Source: a virus (Duplodnaviria > Caudoviricetes). Taken from it: a DNA stretch of 64,000 bases. Under the pieces are notes generated by a model. It saw only the letters and a program-made list of their open reading frames with translations. It was not told the DNA's origin and made no database searches. The stretch covers positions 61,327 through 125,326 of the IMG/VR virus record IMGVR_UViG_3300028626_000002; one strand, 5' to 3'. The translations under genes were made by a program, and so were the position numbers. This document shows positions 1-62,177 of the stretch, in pieces; position 1 is the first letter of the stretch, and each line of letters starts with the position of its first letter.

Positions 1-41
1 GGCGGGCGGGCCTACCCGCGGGGCCCGAAGCTGGCAACCGG

Positions 42-70
42 TTGACACCTGTGCGGCAACAGGTTACCCT
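42..70 (+). promoter_or_regulatory. sigma70-like promoter of the first homing endonuclease
   Basis: TTGACA-17 nt-TACCCT, followed by GGAGG and the ATG at 89. Confidence 0.55.
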
Positions 71-88
71 CTGGGCGGAGGTGACAAG

Positions 89-577
89 ATGGCCACACCA
101 GAGGAACTTGCGTACTGCGCAGGGGTAATTGACTCGGATGGGTGCATCCGAGTGGGTCGCGGGGTCAAGCGTGACAAGCGAGCGGGCAAACACAGCGCTT
201 ACGCTGACTACCACCCCGCTGTCCACGTCGGCCAGGTGGAACCACAAGCGGTTGACCTGCTGAAGCGGGTATTCGGAGGAAGCATCTACCTGCGCAAGCG
301 CGACAAGAAGGCCCACCGCACCTTGATGGTGTGGCGAGTGAGGGACAACCTTGCGGCGGAATGCGCCAGGCAGTTGCTGCCCTACCTGCGCATCAAGAAG
401 GCGCAGGCACTGAACTGTATTGCCCTGCAGGACTACCGCCACGAGTACGGCAGGCAGTCAAGGGCGGTGAAGGGGAGGGCCGGTACTACATTCCGCACAG
501 CCGACGTGATACAGAGGCTCGAGGAGTTCTACGCGGAGTCGAGGAGGCTCAACGCAGGGAGCACGGAGGAACCATAA
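89..577 (+). CDS. LAGLIDADG homing endonuclease (single motif)
   Basis: LAYCAGVIDSDGCI motif, FGGSIY and LLPYLRIKK are typical of phage LAGLIDADG HEGs; the stop overlaps the next start (TAATG). Confidence 0.85.
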   Translation: MATPEELAYCAGVIDSDGCIRVGRGVKRDKRAGKHSAYADYHPAVHVGQVEPQAVDLLKRVFGGSIYLRKRDKKAHRTLMVWRVRDNLAAECARQLLPYLRIKKAQALNCIALQDYRHEYGRQSRAVKGRAGTTFRTADVIQRLEEFYAESRRLNAGSTEEP

Positions 578-2352
578 TGGCCAACAAGACGCTGTTCAAG
601 TCCACGAGTAGCAAGCGTCCCCCCACGGACACGACCAACGAGGCCGGGGGCCGGGCATACAACAGGGACTCTCGCCTCGCGCTCGCGCAGCTCAGTGCAA
701 CCGGCTGCCTCGGCGGCACGTTCTACACGAGCCCCGAACAGGAGCTGGCGACCATCCTGGACCTCTGTGGCCAGAACTCCCCCGAGTTCGTGGCCAAGGC
801 CGCCGTCTACGCCCGCAAGCGCGGGTTCATGAAGGACGCCCCCGCCCTGATGGTGGCGCACCTGGCGTCGCTGCAGACCGCGGAGGGCCGGAACGCCTTC
901 ACGCAGGCGTTCCCGCTCGTCATGGACAACGCGAAGATGGTCCGGAACTTCGTCCAGATCATCCGTTCCGGGCAGGCCGGCCGCAAGTCGTTCGGTTCCC
1001 GGCCCAAGAAGCTGATCCAGGCGTGGTTCAACAACATCCCGGACCACGCGCTGTTCAACTCCAGCATCGGGCAGGACCCGTCGCTGGGGGACATCATCAA
1101 CCTGGTCCACCCGCTGCCCAAGACGGACTCCCGCCGGGCCTTGTACGGCTACCTGAAGGGCACCGAGGGCATCACCCGGGAGGCGTTCGACCGGCTGCCG
1201 CAGGCCGAGCGGTTCAACCGGCATGGCGACCCGCGCTTCTACTTCTCCGACGACCTGCCGCCCCTGGTGCAGGCCTACGAGCAGCTGAAGCGCGGCGCGT
1301 GGGACGGCGAGCAGCTGCCGCGGGTCAACTTCCAGATGCTGACCTCGCTGAAGCTGTCGAAGGACCAGTGGGCCGAGGTGGCCATGACGATGTCGTGGTA
1401 CGCCCTGCGGATGAACCTGAACACCCTGCTGCGGCATGGCGTGTTCGACATCCCGGGGATGACGCCGAAGATCGTCGCCCGGCTGACGGACCCGGAGGCC
1501 ATCCGCAAGGCCAAGGCCTTCCCGTACCAGCTGCTGACCGCGTACCTCTACGCGGACGACAAGCTGCCGCGCGCGGTCAAGAACGCCCTGCAGGACGCCA
1601 TGGAGGTGGCCTGCGAGAACGTCCCGCTCATCGGGAGCGGCCGCATCCTCATCTGCCCGGACGTGTCCGGGTCGATGCGCGAGCCCATCACCGGCAAGCG
1701 GGACCAGGTGTCGAAGATCAACCGCATCCACGTGGCGGCGCTCATCGCCGCGGCGCTGATGCGGAAGAACCCGGACGCGGACATCCTGCCGTTCGCCAAC
1801 GACGTGCGCGGGGACATCCAGTTCAACCCCCGCGACAGCATCATGACGAACGCCCAGCGCGTCTACGACGCGGCCGCCGGCGGAACCCGCATGGCCGCGC
1901 CGCTGCTCCTGGCCAACCGGGAGCAGCGGAAGTACGAGGCGGTGGTCTTCGTCTCGGACAACGAGTCCTGGATGGACAGCGAGGGTCGGCACTACGGCCC
2001 CTGCGGGAAGCAGCTGTGGTCGAACCCCCTGTTCCAGCACCCGACCACCAAGGACTGGGGGGCGACGCAGACCCTGGAGGAGTGGAACACCTTCTCCCGG
2101 CGCAACCACGGCGCCAAGCTGGTGTGCGTCGACCTGACGCCGGACACCACCGTGCAGTGCATCGACCGGGCGGACATCCTCAACGTCGGCGGCTTCTCCG
2201 ACGCGGTGTTCGACGTCATCGACTCGTTCGCGAAGGGCGACCTGACCCCGGAGCACTGGGTGGGCGAGATCGAGCGCATCAACCTGCACCAGTTCGACCC
2301 GACCCCACACGAGGTGGGCCAGGTCGAGGAATCGGCCGAGCCGCTGGCCTAA
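577..2352 (+). CDS. rsr: Ro60/TROVE-domain RNA-binding protein (Rsr-like) with C-terminal vWA domain
   Basis: TNEAGGRAY, GTFY, ALRMNLNTLLRHGVF, FPYQLLTAY, vWA MIDAS DVSGSM, VSDNESW, VGGFSDAVF; true start MANKTLF at 577. Confidence 0.93.
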   Translation: MANKTLFKSTSSKRPPTDTTNEAGGRAYNRDSRLALAQLSATGCLGGTFYTSPEQELATILDLCGQNSPEFVAKAAVYARKRGFMKDAPALMVAHLASLQTAEGRNAFTQAFPLVMDNAKMVRNFVQIIRSGQAGRKSFGSRPKKLIQAWFNNIPDHALFNSSIGQDPSLGDIINLVHPLPKTDSRRALYGYLKGTEGITREAFDRLPQAERFNRHGDPRFYFSDDLPPLVQAYEQLKRGAWDGEQLPRVNFQMLTSLKLSKDQWAEVAMTMSWYALRMNLNTLLRHGVFDIPGMTPKIVARLTDPEAIRKAKAFPYQLLTAYLYADDKLPRAVKNALQDAMEVACENVPLIGSGRILICPDVSGSMREPITGKRDQVSKINRIHVAALIAAALMRKNPDADILPFANDVRGDIQFNPRDSIMTNAQRVYDAAAGGTRMAAPLLLANREQRKYEAVVFVSDNESWMDSEGRHYGPCGKQLWSNPLFQHPTTKDWGATQTLEEWNTFSRRNHGAKLVCVDLTPDTTVQCIDRADILNVGGFSDAVFDVIDSFAKGDLTPEHWVGEIERINLHQFDPTPHEVGQVEESAEPLA

Positions 2353-31171: not shown

Positions 31172-32004
31172 TGGACGAGAACCGCTGGAACTTCGACGAG
31201 ATCGACTGGCCCACCACCAGCTTCAACCTGCGCTCCCACCTCGTCCTCGCCGCCCGCCGGGGCAGCGAGGCCCACGGCACGTACATCCCGCCCGAGGACG
31301 CCACCGGCGTCGACGACCGGGATGTGCTGGGCATCGTCGTGTCGCCCCTCGACCACTACATGGGGGTCAGGAACGACTGGTCGAAGGCGGAGGCCCAGAG
31401 CATCAAGGGTCCGTGGGACGTCGTGCTCTACGACGCCCGCAAGTACGTACGTCTGCTCATGGCACAGAACCCCAACATCCTGATGAGCCTCTGGTGCGAG
31501 CCCGAGGACTACCTGTACATCTCGGAGTTCGGCAGGGCCCTCCTGGGCATGCGCGAGCACTTCAAGGGCCGCCACGCGTTCCACGACGCGTGCGTCGGCT
31601 ACGCCCGGGGGCAGCTCTACAAGATGACCCACGGCAGCCTCGGCACGGGGTACATGGGCGAGAAGCGCAAGGCCCTGGTCGAGCAGTTCGGCTACGACTG
31701 CAAGAACGCGGCGCACCTCCTCCGCCTCCTGTACATGGGCGCCGAGTTCCACAAAGAGGGTGTGCTGCACGTCCGCCGCACGTGGGACCGTGAGCGGCTC
31801 ATCGACATCAAGCGGGGCAAGCACACGCTGCAGGAGGTCTCCAAGATGGCGGAGGACGCCTTCCGTGAGGCGAACGCCGCGTACGCGGAGAGCGTGCTGC
31901 CGGAGAAGGTGGACACCGACCTCATCAACAAGGTGTTCACGGAGATGATGACGGGCTGGTTCTTCAGGCTGCAGCTGAAGACCCTGCGGCTGCAGGAGGG
32001 CTGA
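31171..32004 (+). CDS. Pol-beta superfamily nucleotidyltransferase (RlaP/YcgL-like)
   Basis: GSEAHGT..DDRDVLG, NPNILMSLW, GYDCKNAAHLLRLL. Confidence 0.8.
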   Translation: MDENRWNFDEIDWPTTSFNLRSHLVLAARRGSEAHGTYIPPEDATGVDDRDVLGIVVSPLDHYMGVRNDWSKAEAQSIKGPWDVVLYDARKYVRLLMAQNPNILMSLWCEPEDYLYISEFGRALLGMREHFKGRHAFHDACVGYARGQLYKMTHGSLGTGYMGEKRKALVEQFGYDCKNAAHLLRLLYMGAEFHKEGVLHVRRTWDRERLIDIKRGKHTLQEVSKMAEDAFREANAAYAESVLPEKVDTDLINKVFTEMMTGWFFRLQLKTLRLQEG

Positions 32005-32049
32005 CTTGACTGACGGCCTCCCAGTGTTAGAATGGCCAGGGAGGTGGGC

Positions 32050-32823
32050 GTGAAGAAGCTCAGCGATGACGACCTATTGCTTGCCGTGGACGCGTACGAG
32101 AACGGCGTGTCGGCCGTGCTACTGGGGCAGCAGTACGGGGTAACTCCAGAGTGCCTGTACCAACGGTTCCGAGCACTTGGCGTCACTCCGCGCCCTCGAG
32201 ACGCCGCTCGCAGAGAGTACGATCTCGATGAGGGCGCGTTCGACGTCCTTACGCCGGAGTCGCGCTACTGGCTGGGGTTCTTGATGGCTGACGGGTGCGT
32301 CTGCGGTACCGCGCTGACCGTGGCACTGCGGCGGCAGGACGAGGGTCATCTGGCAGCCCTTGCCCGGTTCCTGGGAACCAGCCGACCTGTGAGGTACGTG
32401 TCGCAGAACGGCTCCGCGTATCTGAGGGTCAGGTCGGCCCGACTGGTGGCAGCACTCGCCGCATACGGGGTAACCCCGCGGAAAAGCCTGCACGCCAAGG
32501 CCCTGCTGGGGGTAGACCACCACTCCGAGTTCTGGTTGGGTGCACTGGACGGCGACGGCTGGGTGGGCAGCTACCGAGGGATCCTACAGGTCGGCTACTG
32601 CGGCTCCGCTGAGCTGATGGAACAGTGTGCAGACTTCGTTGCCGGCACCACCACAGGGCACAAGGGAGACCGCAGGCCTAGCGTCCAGCGGCGGCACGAT
32701 CAGAACGTCAGCCTGGTCACGGTATATGGGAAGCGAGCACGACAACTGCTCGAGCAGCTGCACTCCGCCAGCCCCGTTTGCCTGGGGAGGAAGTTGCGTA
32801 GATGGGAGGAGGTGCGAGGCTGA
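32050..32823 (+). CDS. double-motif LAGLIDADG homing endonuclease with N-terminal HTH
   Basis: YWLGFLMADG and FWLGALDGDG; TTGACT-16-TAGAAT promoter; paralogous to 23663-24457. Confidence 0.87.
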   Translation: MKKLSDDDLLLAVDAYENGVSAVLLGQQYGVTPECLYQRFRALGVTPRPRDAARREYDLDEGAFDVLTPESRYWLGFLMADGCVCGTALTVALRRQDEGHLAALARFLGTSRPVRYVSQNGSAYLRVRSARLVAALAAYGVTPRKSLHAKALLGVDHHSEFWLGALDGDGWVGSYRGILQVGYCGSAELMEQCADFVAGTTTGHKGDRRPSVQRRHDQNVSLVTVYGKRARQLLEQLHSASPVCLGRKLRRWEEVRG

Positions 32824-48398: not shown

Positions 48399-48538
48399 CT
48401 CCTCGCTGCCCCACCTAGTCCCCCTCCACTACGTGGAGGGTGGACTGGTGGAGCGGTTGAACGTGACACGAAGCGGTACAAGAGGTACGTCGGGGTTTCC
48501 CCCAGTCCGTTTCGTTCATCCGGCCTGAAAAGCTGTGT

Positions 48539-49406
48539 GGAACCGCAGGGTTAGGTACGGATAGGCACGGGTAGGCGTGTCGAGTCGTGGGTCGAAGCAG
48601 CACTGGCAAGGCAAGCTGGGGCATCGGGCAGGCTTGGTCAGGTGCGGCATGTCGTGGGTCAAAGCAGCCGGGGGAAGGCCCGGCCCGGCGGGGCAAGTCG
48701 GGGTCTGGTAAGTCCGGGGCTGGAGAGGCTAGGCGTGGGTCAAACGTCGTGTGGAGGCTGGGCCAGGTGCGGTGAGGCGCGGCTTGGTGCGGCGGGGCGC
48801 GGTATGGGTCAAACGTCGTGTAGAGGCTGGGCGCGGCTCGGCTCGGCATGCCACTGCACGGGACGGTTCGGCAAGGCGAGGGTCCAAGTCATCAACGGCC
48901 GGGGTAGGGTTGGCCGGGTGGGGCTTGGCGAGTGAAGGCAAGTCGGGGCATCGGCACGGCGTGGGTCGAATCACCTGGTGGCCAGGCACGCGATGGCGCG
49001 TTGGGCCAGGGCGGGTGGTGGTGCGGAAAGGCAGGGCAGGGGTCGAACACCTACGAAAGGCCTGGCGGGGCACGTCCTGGCTAGGCTCGGGTGGGCGTGG
49101 ATGGGTCGGGCAAGGGTCAAAGCACCCCCGGGGCCAGGCTGGGCGACCGATGGGACGGCTGGTCGAGGGGAGGCATGGGTCGAAACCACCGGCGGCAGGT
49201 CTAGGGTCGGTCGGGCACGCCACGGGTTGGAATGGCTGGGCATGGGTCGAAACGTCTCCAGGCTAGGCTCGTGAGGGCTGGGCTTGGGCTGGCGTGGAAG
49301 TGCTTGGCGTGGGTCGAATCCTGTGGCGGCATGACAAGGCCGGGGCAGGTAAGCCGTCGGTGTGGGTTGGGCTGGCTGGGCCCGGAGTGGTCGGGCATGG
49401 GTCAAA
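48539..49406 (+). repeat. array of 12 units of GG(Y)-NN pentamers, each closed by GGGTCRAA; candidate guide-RNA array (VIPR-like)
   Basis: GGGTC(G/A/C)AA at 48589, 48656, 48737, 48806, 48880, 48963, 49040, 49114, 49177, 49244, 49311 and 49399; 9-14 in-register pentamers precede each. Confidence 0.85.
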
Positions 49407-49584
49407 CGAGTACTCAAGTCATTCCAGAGCGAACGTCTACTACCTACGGTAGTAGAGCCAGGGACCAAAGGAGTAGAACCGCCCGTCCGCAGCGGCTGCA
49501 TGCACACGCGCAGGTGCCCTCAGGCACGAGTCGCAAGGGTGCACACGCAGGCACGACGGAGGGCGCACGGAGGATCGTGACGAG

Positions 49585-50571
49585 ATGGAAGAGAAGGATT
49601 TCCTGCCCCAGGTCAAGGGTTCGCTCGAGTCGCTCATCGGGTCGGTTGACCTGTACGTCCAGCGGGAGCGGCCCACGGCCACCGAGTACGACGAGATGCA
49701 CAACGGCCTGCAGTACCTGATCAACCTGGTCGACACACGCCTGACCACCGCGGCGCGCGCGCAGGAGGTCTCCACCCTTAGCGCCCAGGCGCGCATGGCC
49801 ATCGCAGAGGGCAGGTTCACGGAGGCCAACCGCATCACCCAGCGCCTGATGGAGCTGACCGGCGAAGTGGACGAGGTCGTGGTCACCCCCGAACCGGTTC
49901 CGGCGCCCCCGGCGCTCAACGACACCTCGATGGGGTCCTCGAGGCCCCTGCCGCCCACCCCCGTCCCCACGTCGGTCACGCCCAATCCCTTCCCCAGGCC
50001 GGACGCGCCGGGCATCCCGCCCGAGACGGTCCGGGCCTGGTCCACGGCGGTCGCCATCCCGCTCTTCAACTGCAGCCCCCACGTCATGCGGCGCCTGATC
50101 AAGCGGTGCGACCTCCGCGTGGGGACGGACTACGGAAGGAAGGGCTCGGCGCTGTTCTTCACCGAGAGCGGCCTGCGCAAGGCGTGGGCCACGTCGTCCT
50201 ACGCCACCCGGGACAACCTCGAGTTCCCCGAGAACGTGCTGAAGAACCTCAAGGGGTGCCTGAAGTTCCAGGTGGCCGGCAACATCGTCATGGACGCGTG
50301 GCTGCCGCTGGAGCCCTTCGAGCACCACCCGACCACGAAGATGCCGGAGGGCTACCTCCCCGCGGCCAAGGTCCTGGGCGGGCGGTTCAAGACCTGGGAC
50401 TCCTACCTGCCCCTGGTGATGGACACCAAGGTCTTCCACACCTGCAACTACAAGGGCTACTCCGGCAAGATGGTCATCATGCGGCCCGAGGACGCCGACC
50501 TCGTGGTCAAGCTGTTCACCCAGCGCATGACCAAGCTGAACAACGGCAAGCGGGAGGTCTTCCCCCGGTAG
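49585..50571 (+). CDS. hypothetical protein (helical N-terminus, Pro-rich linker, C-terminal domain)
   Basis: GGAGG SD, high GC3; first gene after the array. Confidence 0.75.
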   Translation: MEEKDFLPQVKGSLESLIGSVDLYVQRERPTATEYDEMHNGLQYLINLVDTRLTTAARAQEVSTLSAQARMAIAEGRFTEANRITQRLMELTGEVDEVVVTPEPVPAPPALNDTSMGSSRPLPPTPVPTSVTPNPFPRPDAPGIPPETVRAWSTAVAIPLFNCSPHVMRRLIKRCDLRVGTDYGRKGSALFFTESGLRKAWATSSYATRDNLEFPENVLKNLKGCLKFQVAGNIVMDAWLPLEPFEHHPTTKMPEGYLPAAKVLGGRFKTWDSYLPLVMDTKVFHTCNYKGYSGKMVIMRPEDADLVVKLFTQRMTKLNNGKREVFPR

Positions 50572-59924: not shown

Positions 59925-62177
59925 TTAGCCGGAGATGGCCAGCTCGAGGTTGGTGCAGGTGACGGTGTTGCCGGCGTTGCCGGAACCCCACTGCGCCGTG
60001 ACCTCGACCAGCTGGGGCGCGGTGGTGTTCAGGTTCGTGCCCACCGGTGCGGTGCCCACGGTCGTGGGGGTGATCGAGGTGCTGTAGGACATACACCCCT
60101 GCGCGATGACCTTCGCCACGCCGGCCCCGCCCGCGGTGCGGCAGGTGATCAACGTGGGCGGAAGCTGCCACCCGATGTTCGTTCCCACGGGCGGCGTGAA
60201 CGTGAACGACAGCACCGTGTCGCCGCCGATCTTGACGCGGATTGTCAGCGTGGTGTTGACACCACGCGTGAGGAACCCGGCGGCCGTGATGCGAACGGAC
60301 TTTCCGGCTGCCAGCGTGTTGGCTGGCAGGGTCATGCTGCCGACACCAGTGCCGACAACCGACACCTGGTTGGCCGTGCCGTCGTTGGCCACGCCGTTGG
60401 CCGTGGCCACGAACTTCACCGGCGCCACCATGCGCGGGTCGCCGTCCGTCACGTACGGGTTGCCCGCCCCGGGTGTGCCCGACGTTCCTGCCAGTGCCGC
60501 CTTCTCACCGCTCGTCGGCAGGTTGCCGTGCGCGTAGGCCCACTCATGCACCCCCACGGCCGAAGCCGCGGCACCCGCGGCTTCAAACGCCGCGGGGAGC
60601 TGCCCTCCCACCGTGTCTGCGTCACCGCCGGCGGCCGTGCGTGCATCGCTCAGCCGAGGATCACCGTCCGTCACGAACGGGTTGTCAGCGGCCGGCGTAC
60701 CGCTTGTGCCCGCCAGTGCGTCCGTCTGGTCCTCCGTCGGGATGCGGGTGTGGTCGAATCCCAGCTCATGCGCACCCACGGCCGAAGCCGCAGTGCCCGC
60801 GACCTCGAACGCCGACGGAAGCTGTCCTCCCACCGTATCAGCATCGCCACCGTTCGCGGTTCGGGCGTCGGTCATACGAGTGTCGTCGTTCGTCACGTAC
60901 GGGTTGGCCGCAGACGGCGTACCAGAGGTGCCGGCCGCCGCGTCGTGCTGGTCCTCGTTCATGTGGTAGGCGCCCGTGGGTCCGGCACCCAGCCGGCTCG
61001 TCAGGCTCTCGTGGTCGGTAGCCGCGCTGCCCAGGAACGCCAGGTCGAACACGCTCTCCACCGACTCCGGGGTGTCGGACGTCGGGGAGATGATGATGCG
61101 GCCCACCAGCCACCCGAAGCCGGCCACGTGGGCCGGGACATCCCCAGGCGGAGCTGCGTTCTGCGCCTCCTCCAGCGTGTAGTCGCCCTGCCCGATGATG
61201 ATGGCCAGCGTGTCTTCGTCGTCCTGCACCAGACGGTAGGCCCAGTTCACGGCGTAGTGCGCGCCGTCAGCCGTGACGTGCGCCAGCGTTCCCGTGCCAT
61301 CGTCGTAGTGCTCTCGGTCGTACTGGTTGGGATGCGTCTCGTTCCATTCGCCAGGCGTCACCTTGCGCCAGTAGAAGTCGATCTTGCCGTTGCCGCCGGG
61401 ATCCGTGCTCGGCGGGTACAGCTGGTTGAGGTCGGTGTGCGAGATGCCCTTCCATACGACACCGCCCTCGAGCCGCACACGGCCACCGTTCGTCGGGGTG
61501 ATCGGGTCGAACGCCGTCGCGGAGAGCCCGAACCCCGACTCGCGGGTGTAGCTCGTGGTCATCAGGAAGCGCTGGCGGATGTGGTCGACGGCGGCCTTGC
61601 CCGTGTCCCCCCACCAGAAGTAGTGAATGCCGGTGTTTCCCACCAGCACCGTGAAGACGCGGCATTTCGTGATGTTGTTGATCTCGCCGACGTCGGTGGT
61701 GGTTCGCTGGATGGGGTCGCCATCGTTGTAGTCGACGATCACGTAGCCCAGCCACTGGCTCGGCAAACCAGTGTACGTCTTGGCAGGAATCGTGAACTGC
61801 TCGGGGTGCCCGTCGTACTCAGGGTTCGTGTAGACGATCACGTCGAAGGCCCCGACCGTGAACGTCCCGTTGTGGTGGTCGGTGAGCACCGGTCTTTCGA
61901 TCATGCCGACCGACAGCACCATGTCCCGGGCGTCGGCCTCCGCCTTCGTGTACGCGTCCACGTGGGGGGCGTCCACCAGGTGGTTGGCGACCAGTTCGGC
62001 GGCGACACCCGTGTCCTCCTTCCCCGTCTCGAGGTTCGCCACATCCTCGAGGGTGGAGATGAAAGTGGGCTTCATCGTGTCGTACCACTCGATGAGCCTC
62101 GTGAGCGGCCACTTCAGGGCCGGCGGAAACACGATCCACTGCTTCATGAAGTCGGAGCGAAGCTCGTCACCAGCCAT
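59925..62177 (-). CDS. probable virion structural / tail-fibre-like protein with ~74-aa internal repeats
   Basis: the only substantial minus-strand gene; Gly/Thr/Ala-rich; AGTSGTP..NPYVT.GDPR three times; beta-rich C-terminus; GGGAGG SD. Confidence 0.7.
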   Translation of the reverse strand: MAGDELRSDFMKQWIVFPPALKWPLTRLIEWYDTMKPTFISTLEDVANLETGKEDTGVAAELVANHLVDAPHVDAYTKAEADARDMVLSVGMIERPVLTDHHNGTFTVGAFDVIVYTNPEYDGHPEQFTIPAKTYTGLPSQWLGYVIVDYNDGDPIQRTTTDVGEINNITKCRVFTVLVGNTGIHYFWWGDTGKAAVDHIRQRFLMTTSYTRESGFGLSATAFDPITPTNGGRVRLEGGVVWKGISHTDLNQLYPPSTDPGGNGKIDFYWRKVTPGEWNETHPNQYDREHYDDGTGTLAHVTADGAHYAVNWAYRLVQDDEDTLAIIIGQGDYTLEEAQNAAPPGDVPAHVAGFGWLVGRIIISPTSDTPESVESVFDLAFLGSAATDHESLTSRLGAGPTGAYHMNEDQHDAAAGTSGTPSAANPYVTNDDTRMTDARTANGGDADTVGGQLPSAFEVAGTAASAVGAHELGFDHTRIPTEDQTDALAGTSGTPAADNPFVTDGDPRLSDARTAAGGDADTVGGQLPAAFEAAGAAASAVGVHEWAYAHGNLPTSGEKAALAGTSGTPGAGNPYVTDGDPRMVAPVKFVATANGVANDGTANQVSVVGTGVGSMTLPANTLAAGKSVRITAAGFLTRGVNTTLTIRVKIGGDTVLSFTFTPPVGTNIGWQLPPTLITCRTAGGAGVAKVIAQGCMSYSTSITPTTVGTAPVGTNLNTTAPQLVEVTAQWGSGNAGNTVTCTNLELAISG

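What the first reader, a model, noticed from the sequence alone, without database searches (positions are those of the whole stretch)
48539..49406. Twelve-unit GG(Y)-NN pentamer array: candidate non-contiguous guide-RNA (VIPR-like) system
Seen: an 870-nt non-coding, strongly G-skewed block made of 12 units spaced 63-88 nt apart. Each unit has a short linker (about 8-11 nt), then 9-14 pentamers in strict 5-nt register, then the terminal motif GGGTCRAA. In each pentamer the first three bases are mostly GGC/GGT (sometimes GGG, GGA or GTC) and the last two vary freely. Example 48756-48805: GGC-TG GGC-CA GGT-GC GGT-GA GGC-GC GGC-TT GGT-GC GGC-GG GGC-GC GGT-AT. Example 48672-48736 gives NN = AA CC CC GG AA GG CT AA CG CT GA TA GT. 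Every unit has a different NN string while the scaffold is kept, which is not what simple slippage produces. A hairpin at about 48422-48440 and a promoter-like GGTACAAG at 48475 precede the array. Inference: one transcript is cut at GGGTCRAA into 12 small RNAs; the constant GGY triplets bind a repeating protein subunit and the NN dinucleotides spell a gapped target, like a CRISPR array with repeat and spacer interleaved. From memory and unverified, this matches phage 'VIPR' RNAs, which pair with a Cas7/RAMP-like protein and target competing phages. I see no RAMP-like gene (Gly-rich GxGxxR..GRF loop) in this window, so the array is an orphan acting in trans or uses a different effector.
Basis: partly seen in the sequence, partly recalled or inferred. 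Interest (0 to 1): 0.95.

Follow-up and report, generated by a model that had tools for sequence, protein, structure and literature searches.

The report
Phage VIPR guide-RNA array, split locus
The five-base rhythm is a real array of twelve guide-RNA genes of the recently described phage VIPR system, and it is not an orphan: the matching Cas7-like Vipr protein gene lies 48.7 kb upstream in the same phage genome, just outside the window.

Summary
Window 48539-49406 is a non-coding, G-rich block of 12 units spaced 63-88 nt apart. Each unit is a run of GGY-NN pentamers that ends in GGYRT-GGGTC-RAA.

VIPR (Vipr protein plus GGY/NN vrRNAs) is a real system, described in four 2026 bioRxiv preprints. 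This array fits its definition.

The 125-kb phage record encodes a 222-aa Vipr homologue at G000 60542-61207, which ends about 117 nt before the window starts. A family profile hits PDB 36pp, "SUSP1 Vipr protein", at E 1e-13. All six residues named in the SUSP1 structure paper are conserved. The AlphaFold model matches Csm3/Cas7.

In 75 of 80 related viral loci the pentamer arrays directly flank vipr. Here the only array lies 48.7 kb away, and its units have a short, unstructured delimiter instead of a pseudoknot tail or ribozyme.

I could not identify targets. Searches under the one-base-skip rule gave only chance-level hits; the best was 23/24 in an unrelated 107-kb phage. Transcription and processing are not shown.

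Verdict: a new member of a known kind, with a split-locus layout. This scan has noted VIPR arrays 430 times in at least 304 other genomes. Interest is modest.

The parts
48408..48454 (+). Upstream hairpin. The arms are 22 nt and imperfect, with a perfect 8-bp core at 48422-48440 and a TAC loop. It probably ends the upstream operon or forms the 5' boundary of the array transcript.
   Evidence: This is one of only two perfect TAC-loop hairpins (stem of 7 bp or more) in the 125-kb genome. The other lies just after the array.
48475..48482 (+). GGTACAAG, a one-base variant of the genome's intergenic GGTATAAS word. Candidate promoter element for the array (inferred).
   Evidence: GGTATAA[CG] occurs 8 times, all on the + strand and all intergenic upstream of + strand genes, including 60 nt upstream of the vipr start codon. 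No sigma-70-type promoter is found here.
48539..49406 (+). VIPR vrRNA array of 12 guide units. Its partner gene vipr lies outside the window at G000 60542-61207 (+), which corresponds to window coordinates -784 to -119.
   Evidence: for the array. for vipr.
48549..48596 (+). Unit 1: 9 in-register pentamers plus GAA. NN string: TA AC TA AC TA GT GA GT TC.
48597..48663 (+). Unit 2: 4 + 7 pentamers, with a 1-nt slip after GGCAT at 48625.
48664..48744 (+). Unit 3: 14 pentamers.
48745..48813 (+). Unit 4: 12 pentamers. NN string: GA TG CA GC GA GC TT GC GG GC AT TC. It shares its first ~20 nt with unit 5.
   Evidence: Its best external match is 23/24 in L083.
48814..48887 (+). Unit 5: 13 pentamers, two of them degenerate. 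The delimiter is GGGTCCAA.
48888..48970 (+). Unit 6: 11 + 3 pentamers, with a 1-nt slip after GGCAT at 48952.
48971..49047 (+). Unit 7: 13 pentamers. The register is partly ambiguous.
49048..49121 (+). Unit 8: 12 pentamers.
49122..49184 (+). Unit 9: 10 pentamers.
49185..49251 (+). Unit 10: 11 pentamers.
49252..49318 (+). Unit 11: 11 pentamers.
49319..49406 (+). Unit 12: 12 pentamers after a longer leader.
49436..49456 (+). Downstream hairpin with a perfect 9-bp stem and a TAC loop. Candidate 3' boundary or terminator of the array transcript; it has no U tract.
   Evidence: No intrinsic terminator by consensus.

Best explanation
The block is the guide-RNA (vrRNA) array of a VIPR system. The system's protein gene, vipr, sits 48.7 kb upstream in the same phage genome.

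Shown: the anatomy of the array and the identity of the Vipr protein.

Inferred by analogy with the SUSP1 system:
- The + strand is transcribed, possibly from the GGTACAAG element and bounded by the two TAC-loop hairpins.
- Vipr protomers polymerise one per pentamer on each GGY-NN run. They hold the GGY bases and present the NN bases.
- The unprotected, GG-free linkers (CRAA plus 8-12 nt) are removed, most likely by host RNases, since no ribozyme or structured tail is present. This would yield 12 RNAs of about 50-75 nt that end near GGYRT-GGGTC.
- Each filament binds double-stranded DNA that carries the NN string with one skipped base between dinucleotides, and silences transcription there.
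- The likely targets are genes of competing phages, satellites or prophages in the same activated-sludge host. They could not be identified.
For: **Array**
- The pentamer composition and information profile fit GGY/NN, with 9-14 pentamers per unit. The published range is 9-16.
- All 12 units keep the 3' end GGYRT-GGGTC-RAA. SUSP1 vrRNAs end their repeat tract with the same GGTRT-GGGT.
- The block is non-coding and unique in the genome.

**Protein**
- tblastn with SUSP1 Vipr hits G000 60647-61180 at E 1.2e-9.
- A 37-sequence family profile hits PDB 36pp "SUSP1 Vipr protein" at E 1.1e-13.
- The AlphaFold model (pLDDT 79.8) matches Csm3/Cas7 chains at probability 1.00.
- SUSP1 residues H17, K33, R138, D177, W178 and R179 align with H49, K65, R161, D202, F203 and R204. 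All except F203 (an aromatic substitution) are invariant or nearly invariant in the family.

**Family link between protein and arrays**
- 75 of 80 IMG/VR loci with Vipr relatives carry runs of 8 or more pentamers within 1 kb of vipr, on the same strand.

**Other points**
- The array has the same orientation as vipr and the flanking genes.
- There is no self-target above the shuffled-guide null, as the authors also report for natural systems.
Against: - No expression or processing data exist. The only holders labelled RNA-Seq are Logan contigs whose RNA nature is a guess.
- The array is not next to vipr, unlike in 75 of 80 relatives. Partnership is therefore inferred from both lying in one genome.
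- Position 3 is a purine in 30% of pentamers, and several pentamers are degenerate.
- No vap accessory gene was found.
- No target was found above chance.
- The one-base skip rule was shown for type II VIPR only and is assumed here.
Confidence: 0.85

Rival explanations
1. The array works as a set of solo or decoy vrRNAs. It is aimed at loading the Vipr proteins of other, co-infecting phages and redirecting them, as described for satellites and VIPR-null SUSP1-like phages, rather than serving the phage's own Vipr.
For: - The array is 48.7 kb from vipr, and solo vrRNAs are documented.
- Its delimiter differs from the continuous arrays of relatives.
Against: - The genome does encode an intact Vipr with all contact residues, so it is not VIPR-null.
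- The GGY scaffold and the GGYRT-GGGT end are generic.
- No guide matches vipr genes or arrays in the 80 related loci above the null.
Confidence: 0.07
2. The array is a decaying relic. It was separated from vipr by rearrangement and is no longer functional.
For: - Register slips, degenerate pentamers and 30% purine at position 3.
- No adjacent effector gene.
- No targets found.
Against: - All 12 units keep the 8-nt end motif and the preceding GGY-RT.
- Units 4 and 5 share a duplicated leader, which suggests recent unit turnover.
- Wastewater contigs carry near-identical and variant versions of the units.
- The VIPR authors call internal degeneracy of vrRNAs frequent.
Confidence: 0.05
3. The block is a DNA-level element, such as a G-quadruplex-forming region, a replication origin or a recombination site. 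It would not be an RNA gene.
For: - 46% G on one strand.
- 54 tracts of three or more G.
- Four overlapping canonical G4 matches at two sites.
Against: - G4 or origin function does not predict strict 5-nt phasing of GG with free NN, nor a conserved unit end. VIPR does.
- The same pentamer arrays flank vipr genes across the family.
- The genome encodes the reader protein.
Confidence: 0.03

Closest known systems
VIPR systems (Vipr + vrRNA). Experimental exemplar: the type II system of Escherichia phage SUSP1 (bioRxiv 10.64898/2026.04.26.720920 and .720927; PDB 36pp).
   Same: - A small stand-alone RAMP protein with conserved H, K, thumb R and a G-loop D-aromatic-R.
- RNAs made of 9-14 GGY-NN pentamers.
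- A repeat tract that ends in GGYRT-GGGT.
- Phage-encoded, with no self-targets.
   Different: - The Vipr proteins are only 27% identical.
- The array is 48.7 kb from vipr instead of flanking it.
- It has 12 units against 4.
- There is no pseudoknot or hairpin tail, only CRAA plus an 8-12 nt unstructured linker.
- No vap1 homologue was found.
The Vipr clade found in IMG/VR loci L003-L082 (41-50% identical to this Vipr). These loci have long continuous pentamer arrays. They are possibly the "staggered arrays" of fig. S18 of the first VIPR preprint, but I could not see the figure.
   Same: - The closest Vipr sequences.
- High-GC GGC/GGT pentamers on the same strand as vipr.
- No conserved accessory gene.
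   Different: - Their arrays abut vipr (75 of 80) and run for up to 47 pentamers without a recognisable delimiter.
- Here the units are separated by GGGTCRAA plus a linker, and the locus is split.
Solo (orphan) vrRNAs of F5 satellites and VIPR-null SUSP1-like phages (bioRxiv 10.64898/2026.10.15.759431).
   Same: vrRNA genes that stand without an adjacent vipr.
   Different: - Those genomes lack vipr and carry 1-2 vrRNAs at the old vipr site.
- This genome keeps vipr and has 12 units at a distant site.
Class 1 CRISPR crRNA arrays with Cas7 backbones.
   Same: - A RAMP filament on a guide RNA.
- An array of units with a constant part and a variable part.
   Different: - There is no long repeat-spacer alternation.
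- There are no cas1/cas2 or other cas genes.
- Constant and variable bases are interleaved every 5 nt.

Membership tests
VIPR system | A Vipr protein: a minimal RAMP with an RRM core, thumb and glycine-rich loop, related to SUSP1 Vipr. | tested here: met
   - Gene at G000 60542-61207.
- tblastn E 1.2e-9.
- Family profile against PDB 36pp, E 1.1e-13.
- Foldseek top hits are Csm3/Cas7.
- Contact residues conserved.
VIPR system | vrRNAs made of 9-16 tandem GGY/NN (YNNGG) pentamers. | tested here: met
   - 9-14 pentamers per unit.
- Position 1 is G in 97%, position 2 is G in 84%, position 3 is C or T in 70%.
VIPR system | NN positions hypervariable while GGY is conserved. | tested here: met
   - Across the 12 units, NN columns carry 0-0.5 bits and GG columns 1.2-2 bits. 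NN usage is near uniform.
- Between related phages there is only weak support: three differences in unit 4 of a variant contig fall at positions 3, 4 and 5.
VIPR system | An invariable 3' tail after the repeat tract, structured in type II. | tested here: inconclusive
   - A conserved GGYRT-GGGTC-RAA end is present in all units.
- No conserved structure was found: fold z-scores run from -2.0 to +1.6.
- No Rfam ribozyme was found.
VIPR system | vrRNA genes in the intergenic regions that flank vipr. | tested here: not met
   - There is no pentamer run near vipr. The only array is 48.7 kb downstream.
- This is the typical layout, not a mechanistic requirement; solo vrRNAs are published.
VIPR system | An accessory vap gene beside vipr (type-dependent). 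| tested here: not met
   - No SUSP1 vap1 homologue in the genome.
- The genes flanking vipr and the array have no homologues in the 80 related loci.
- Those loci have no widely shared neighbour gene either.
VIPR system | vrRNAs are expressed, processed to under 100 nt and bound by Vipr. | not testable with these tools
   Only Logan contigs of runs labelled RNA-Seq were available, and their RNA nature is a guess.
VIPR system | Natural DNA targets that match the NN string with a one-base skip. | tested here: inconclusive
   - Own genome and 1.2 Mb of related loci: nothing above the shuffled-guide null.
- Collection scans: hits at about the number expected by chance.
Solo/orphan vrRNA of a VIPR-null element | The carrying genome lacks vipr. 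| tested here: not met
   An intact vipr is present in the same record.
CRISPR array | Direct repeats of about 23-50 nt alternating with spacers, and cas genes. | tested here: not met
   - The only recurring word is 8 nt long.
- Tandem Repeats Finder sees only 5-15 nt periods.
- The only RAMP is the lone Vipr.

The most novel reading that the evidence does not exclude
This phage may run VIPR as a split system. A Vipr gene with its own GGTATAAC element sits directly upstream of a Ro60/Y-RNA module. A distant, separately bounded bank of 12 guides has units delimited only by a short unstructured GGGTCRAA-plus-linker. On this reading, guide maturation would work by host RNase trimming of Vipr-protected filaments, with no ribozyme, pseudoknot or staggered overlap. 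That would be a processing mode and locus logic not described in the preprint text I read.
Probability: 0.3. Interest if true: 0.45.

Novelty: new member of a known kind. Interest (0 to 1): 0.3.

Why it matters
This finding joins two separate "orphan" notes of this scan into one system: a lone RAMP gene at the end of the previous window and a lone pentamer array in this one. It shows that VIPR guides can lie tens of kilobases from their protein gene. Surveys that look only in 20-kb windows around vipr, or only for arrays beside a Vipr fold, will therefore miscount both solo arrays and array-less vipr genes.

It also adds a 12-guide, high-GC example from an activated-sludge phage that carries its own RNA polymerase and a Ro60/Y-RNA module. 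Its minimal unit delimiter could be useful for studying how vrRNAs are matured.

It does not change the picture of what VIPR is.

Tried and rejected
- **Close phage relatives.** megablast and blastn of the locus against 50,697 phage records gave no match. A large window protein also found nothing by tblastn.
- **Rfam.** No family fits; in particular there is no hammerhead between units.
- **Pfam and PHROGs on flanking ORFs.** Nothing. The 328-aa ORF 49585-50571 has no homologue but itself among 5.8 billion proteins. Its only lead is a weak HTH-like one from the ESM Atlas (scores 0.75-0.80, TM under 0.25 by query). It is not called a vap.
- **The search for related loci with the single Vipr sequence.** Nothing. 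It worked with the alignment.
- **The look-up of encoding contigs.** The 2986-bp contig of the 92%-identical Vipr (P0002) and the 184,783-bp contig that holds the 328-aa protein could not be read.
- **Target search.**
  - U4 (10 NN, 20 fixed bases) gave 1 hit in IMG/VR, 2 in JGI metagenomes (one is the same contig) and 3 in GTDB genomes.
  - The hits lie in unrelated genes: a 283-aa gene next to terL, an oxidoreductase-like ORF, a Peptidase_M78 gene, a glycosyltransferase-like ORF and a topoisomerase-like ORF.
  - The best hit, 23/24 in the complete 107-kb phage G001 (46.8% GC), is not backed by any other guide or by shared genes with this phage. I treat it as probably chance.
  - U3, U8, U10 and U11 gave 0 hits in IMG/VR. 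U8 gave 0 and U3 gave 1 (22/28, poor extension) in GTDB.
- **Same-delimiter arrays elsewhere.** A scan for three spaced GGGTCRAA words returned about 240 loci, and none of them has pentamers before the motif. I did not inspect what these loci are.
- **Expression.** No RNA holder is listed on record. Runs labelled RNA-Seq hold only short contigs, and their RNA nature is a guess.
- **Protein-coding reading of the long ORFs across the array.** Rejected on the flat codon-position GC.

Full report
**Observation**

Window 48539-49406 is a 46%-G, non-coding block. It holds twelve + strand delimiters. Eleven read GGGTC[A/G]AA and one reads GGGTCCAA. They lie 63-88 nt apart.

Read backwards from each delimiter, the sequence falls into pentamers. 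Over 142 pentamers, position 1 is G in 97%, position 2 is G in 84%, and position 3 is C or T in 70%. Positions 4 and 5 are near uniform, although the genome is 67% GC. When the units are aligned on the delimiter, the GG columns carry 1.2-2.0 bits and the NN columns 0-0.5 bits.

The 5-nt phasing of GG is 47%, against 21 ± 3% in shuffles. GC is flat over the codon positions (0.67/0.70/0.71), while the flanking genes have GC3 of 0.96. The long ORFs listed across the block are therefore not genes. Nothing comparable exists elsewhere in the 125,326-bp genome record.

Some details differ from the first description:
- GGGTC is itself an in-register pentamer, and a conserved GGY-RT pentamer precedes it.
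- Units 2 and 6 each have a one-base slip at a GGCATC hexamer.
- Several pentamers are degenerate.

**What is known**

VIPR is real and was published in 2026. The first preprint describes Vipr, a roughly 20-kDa RAMP protein, together with vrRNAs of 9-16 GGY/NN repeats followed by an invariable tail. It also describes DNA recognition in which one target base is skipped between dinucleotides, seven types, and array variants that are staggered, ribozyme-interspersed or single (10.64898/2026.04.26.720920). The structure preprint names the contact residues H17, K33, R138, D177, W178 and R179 of SUSP1 Vipr (10.64898/2026.04.26.720927). A third preprint describes solo vrRNAs on satellites and on phages that have lost vipr (10.64898/2026.10.15.759431). 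A fourth recovers 99 VIPR-like array clusters from intergenic DNA (10.64898/2026.10.21.760802).

**The effector gene**

I located the SUSP1 locus in KT454805.2 from its pentamer arrays and searched this genome with its 195-aa Vipr. One hit stands out: G000 60647-61180 on the + strand, E 1.2e-9. The gene runs from 60542 to 61207, encodes 222 aa and has a ribosome-binding site.

- It belongs to a family of at least 400 proteins with no Pfam domain.
- A 37-sequence profile of that family hits exactly one PDB sequence, 36pp "SUSP1 Vipr protein", at E 1.1e-13.
- The AlphaFold model (pLDDT 79.8, pTM 0.74) matches Csm3/Cas7 chains of type III and type VII complexes at probability 1.00.
- In the pairwise alignment, the six named SUSP1 residues align with H49, K65, R161, D202, F203 and R204. 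I corrected the numbering by one, because my reference dropped the start codon. All except F203 (an aromatic substitution) are invariant or nearly invariant in the family.

The two orphans belong together.

**Family context**

Eighty IMG/VR loci encode relatives that are 41-50% identical. Seventy-five of them have runs of at least 8 GG-phased pentamers within 1 kb of vipr, on the same strand: 50 upstream and 68 downstream. These arrays are long and continuous, up to 47 pentamers, and have no GGGTCRAA delimiter. No accessory gene is widely shared among them. None of the genes flanking vipr or the array in this phage has a homologue there.

This phage differs in two ways. Its only array is 48.7 kb from vipr. 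Its units are separated by a short conserved end plus an 8-12 nt linker that lacks GG phasing. Single-unit folds show no conserved structure (z from -2.0 to +1.6) and Rfam finds no ribozyme. The end of the repeat tract, GGYRT-GGGT, is shared with the SUSP1 vrRNAs.

**Transcription signals (inferred)**

No sigma-70 promoter or intrinsic terminator is found by consensus. According to earlier notes of this scan, the phage encodes its own RNA polymerase; a PHROG match to RNA polymerase beta subunit agrees.

The word GGTATAA[CG] occurs 8 times. All copies are on the + strand and in intergenic DNA upstream of genes, including one 60 nt before the vipr start codon. The array has the one-base variant GGTACAAG 64 nt before its first unit. 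The only two perfect TAC-loop hairpins in the genome bracket the array, at 48422-48440 and 49436-49456.

Wastewater runs labelled RNA-Seq hold short contigs identical to parts of the array, together with variants that have different unit content. Their RNA nature is only a guess, so I do not count this as evidence of expression.

**Targets**

Under the one-base-skip rule, no guide matches the phage's own genome or 1.2 Mb of related loci better than shuffled guides do.

Exact 10-dinucleotide patterns (20 fixed bases) gave the following:

| Guide | IMG/VR | JGI metagenomes | GTDB genomes |
|---|---|---|---|
| U4 | 1 hit | 2 hits (one is the same contig as the IMG/VR hit) | 3 hits |
| U3 | 0 | not scanned | 1 hit (22/28) |
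| U8 | 0 | not scanned | 0 |
| U10 | 0 | not scanned | not scanned |
| U11 | 0 | not scanned | not scanned |

The U4 hit in IMG/VR extends to 23 of 24 positions. The dinucleotides fall on codon positions 1-2 of a 283-aa gene next to terL, in a complete 107-kb phage. Several points weigh against it:
- That phage is 46.8% GC.
- It shares no genes with this one.
- No other guide hits it.
- The other U4 hits lie in unrelated genes.
- The hit counts are about what a 20-base pattern should give by chance in databases of this size.

I conclude that the targets are unknown.

**Verdict**

This is a genuine VIPR vrRNA array that most likely serves the phage's own distant Vipr (about 85%). Rival readings are a decoy or solo function, a relic, or a DNA-level element; together they get about 15%. 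It is a new member of a known kind with a split-locus, short-delimiter layout. This scan already holds 430 VIPR notes in at least 304 genomes.

Noticed in passing
G000 60482, 64790, 46060, 78715, 85923, 89257, 111914, 123580 (window -844, 3464, -15266, 17389, 24597, 27931, 50588, 62254): GGTATAA[CG] occurs 8 times, always on the + strand and always in intergenic DNA 40-110 nt upstream of a gene or of the Y-RNA tract. It never occurs on the - strand. This makes it a candidate promoter element of the phage's own RNA polymerase.
   Followed up: partly
window 48422-48440 and 49436-49456: The only two perfect hairpins with a TAC loop (stem of 7 bp or more) in the 125-kb genome bracket the vrRNA array.
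   Followed up: partly
window 49501-49556: Two 9-nt words (TGCACACGC and CAGGCACGA) are each repeated twice. They lie just upstream of the 328-aa ORFan, whose middle part has a weak HTH-like lead. This is a possible operator for that protein.
   Followed up: no
window 49585-50571: In the 5.8-billion-protein collection, the 328-aa protein is recorded on a contig of 184,783 bp, which is longer than this 125,326-bp record. The phage genome may be larger than the record searched here.
   Followed up: no
window 48745-48764 and 48814-48833: Units 4 and 5 share almost the same first 20 nt (CGTCGTGTRGAGGCTGGGC) and then diverge. This looks like a recent unit duplication followed by change of the guide part.
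   Followed up: no
window 48620-48625 and 48947-48952: Both one-base register slips in the array occur at the same hexamer, GGCATC, in units 2 and 6. What a six-base unit does to a Vipr filament is unknown.
   Followed up: no
L002:6258-6920 (G000 61257-61919; window 1-593): Directly after vipr comes a 37-codon remnant of the Ro60/TROVE N-terminus. A LAGLIDADG-type ORF follows, and then the complete TROVE gene (PHROG RNA-binding protein, E 3e-35). Before the endonuclease insertion, vipr was therefore the immediate upstream neighbour of Ro60. Earlier notes of this scan describe the same arrangement.
   Followed up: partly
L086:4142-4177 (alphaproteobacterial MAG CAIRMX010000155.1): Guide U4 matches 22 of 24 positions here, over the sequence EWQADALAGAIL. 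That stretch lies in the C-terminal part of a Peptidase_M78 (IrrE/ImmA-like) protein, downstream of its HELAH motif. ImmA-type proteases control prophage induction, so this is an untested lead. The total hit count is at chance level.
   Followed up: partly
window 48743-48918 and 48869-48965 (contigs of runs X3, X2): Wastewater contigs carry variants of units 4-6. In one, the degenerate pentamer TGCAC at 48855 reads GGCAC. In another, a different run of pentamers precedes 48869. This suggests that unit content varies among related phages.
   Followed up: partly
G000 31902-32660: A 252-aa gene of this phage shows weak similarity (30% over 81 aa, pairwise E 3e-4) to the 283-aa gene next to terL in phage G001 that guide U4 matches. 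The phage's own copy differs at the matched site.
   Followed up: partly
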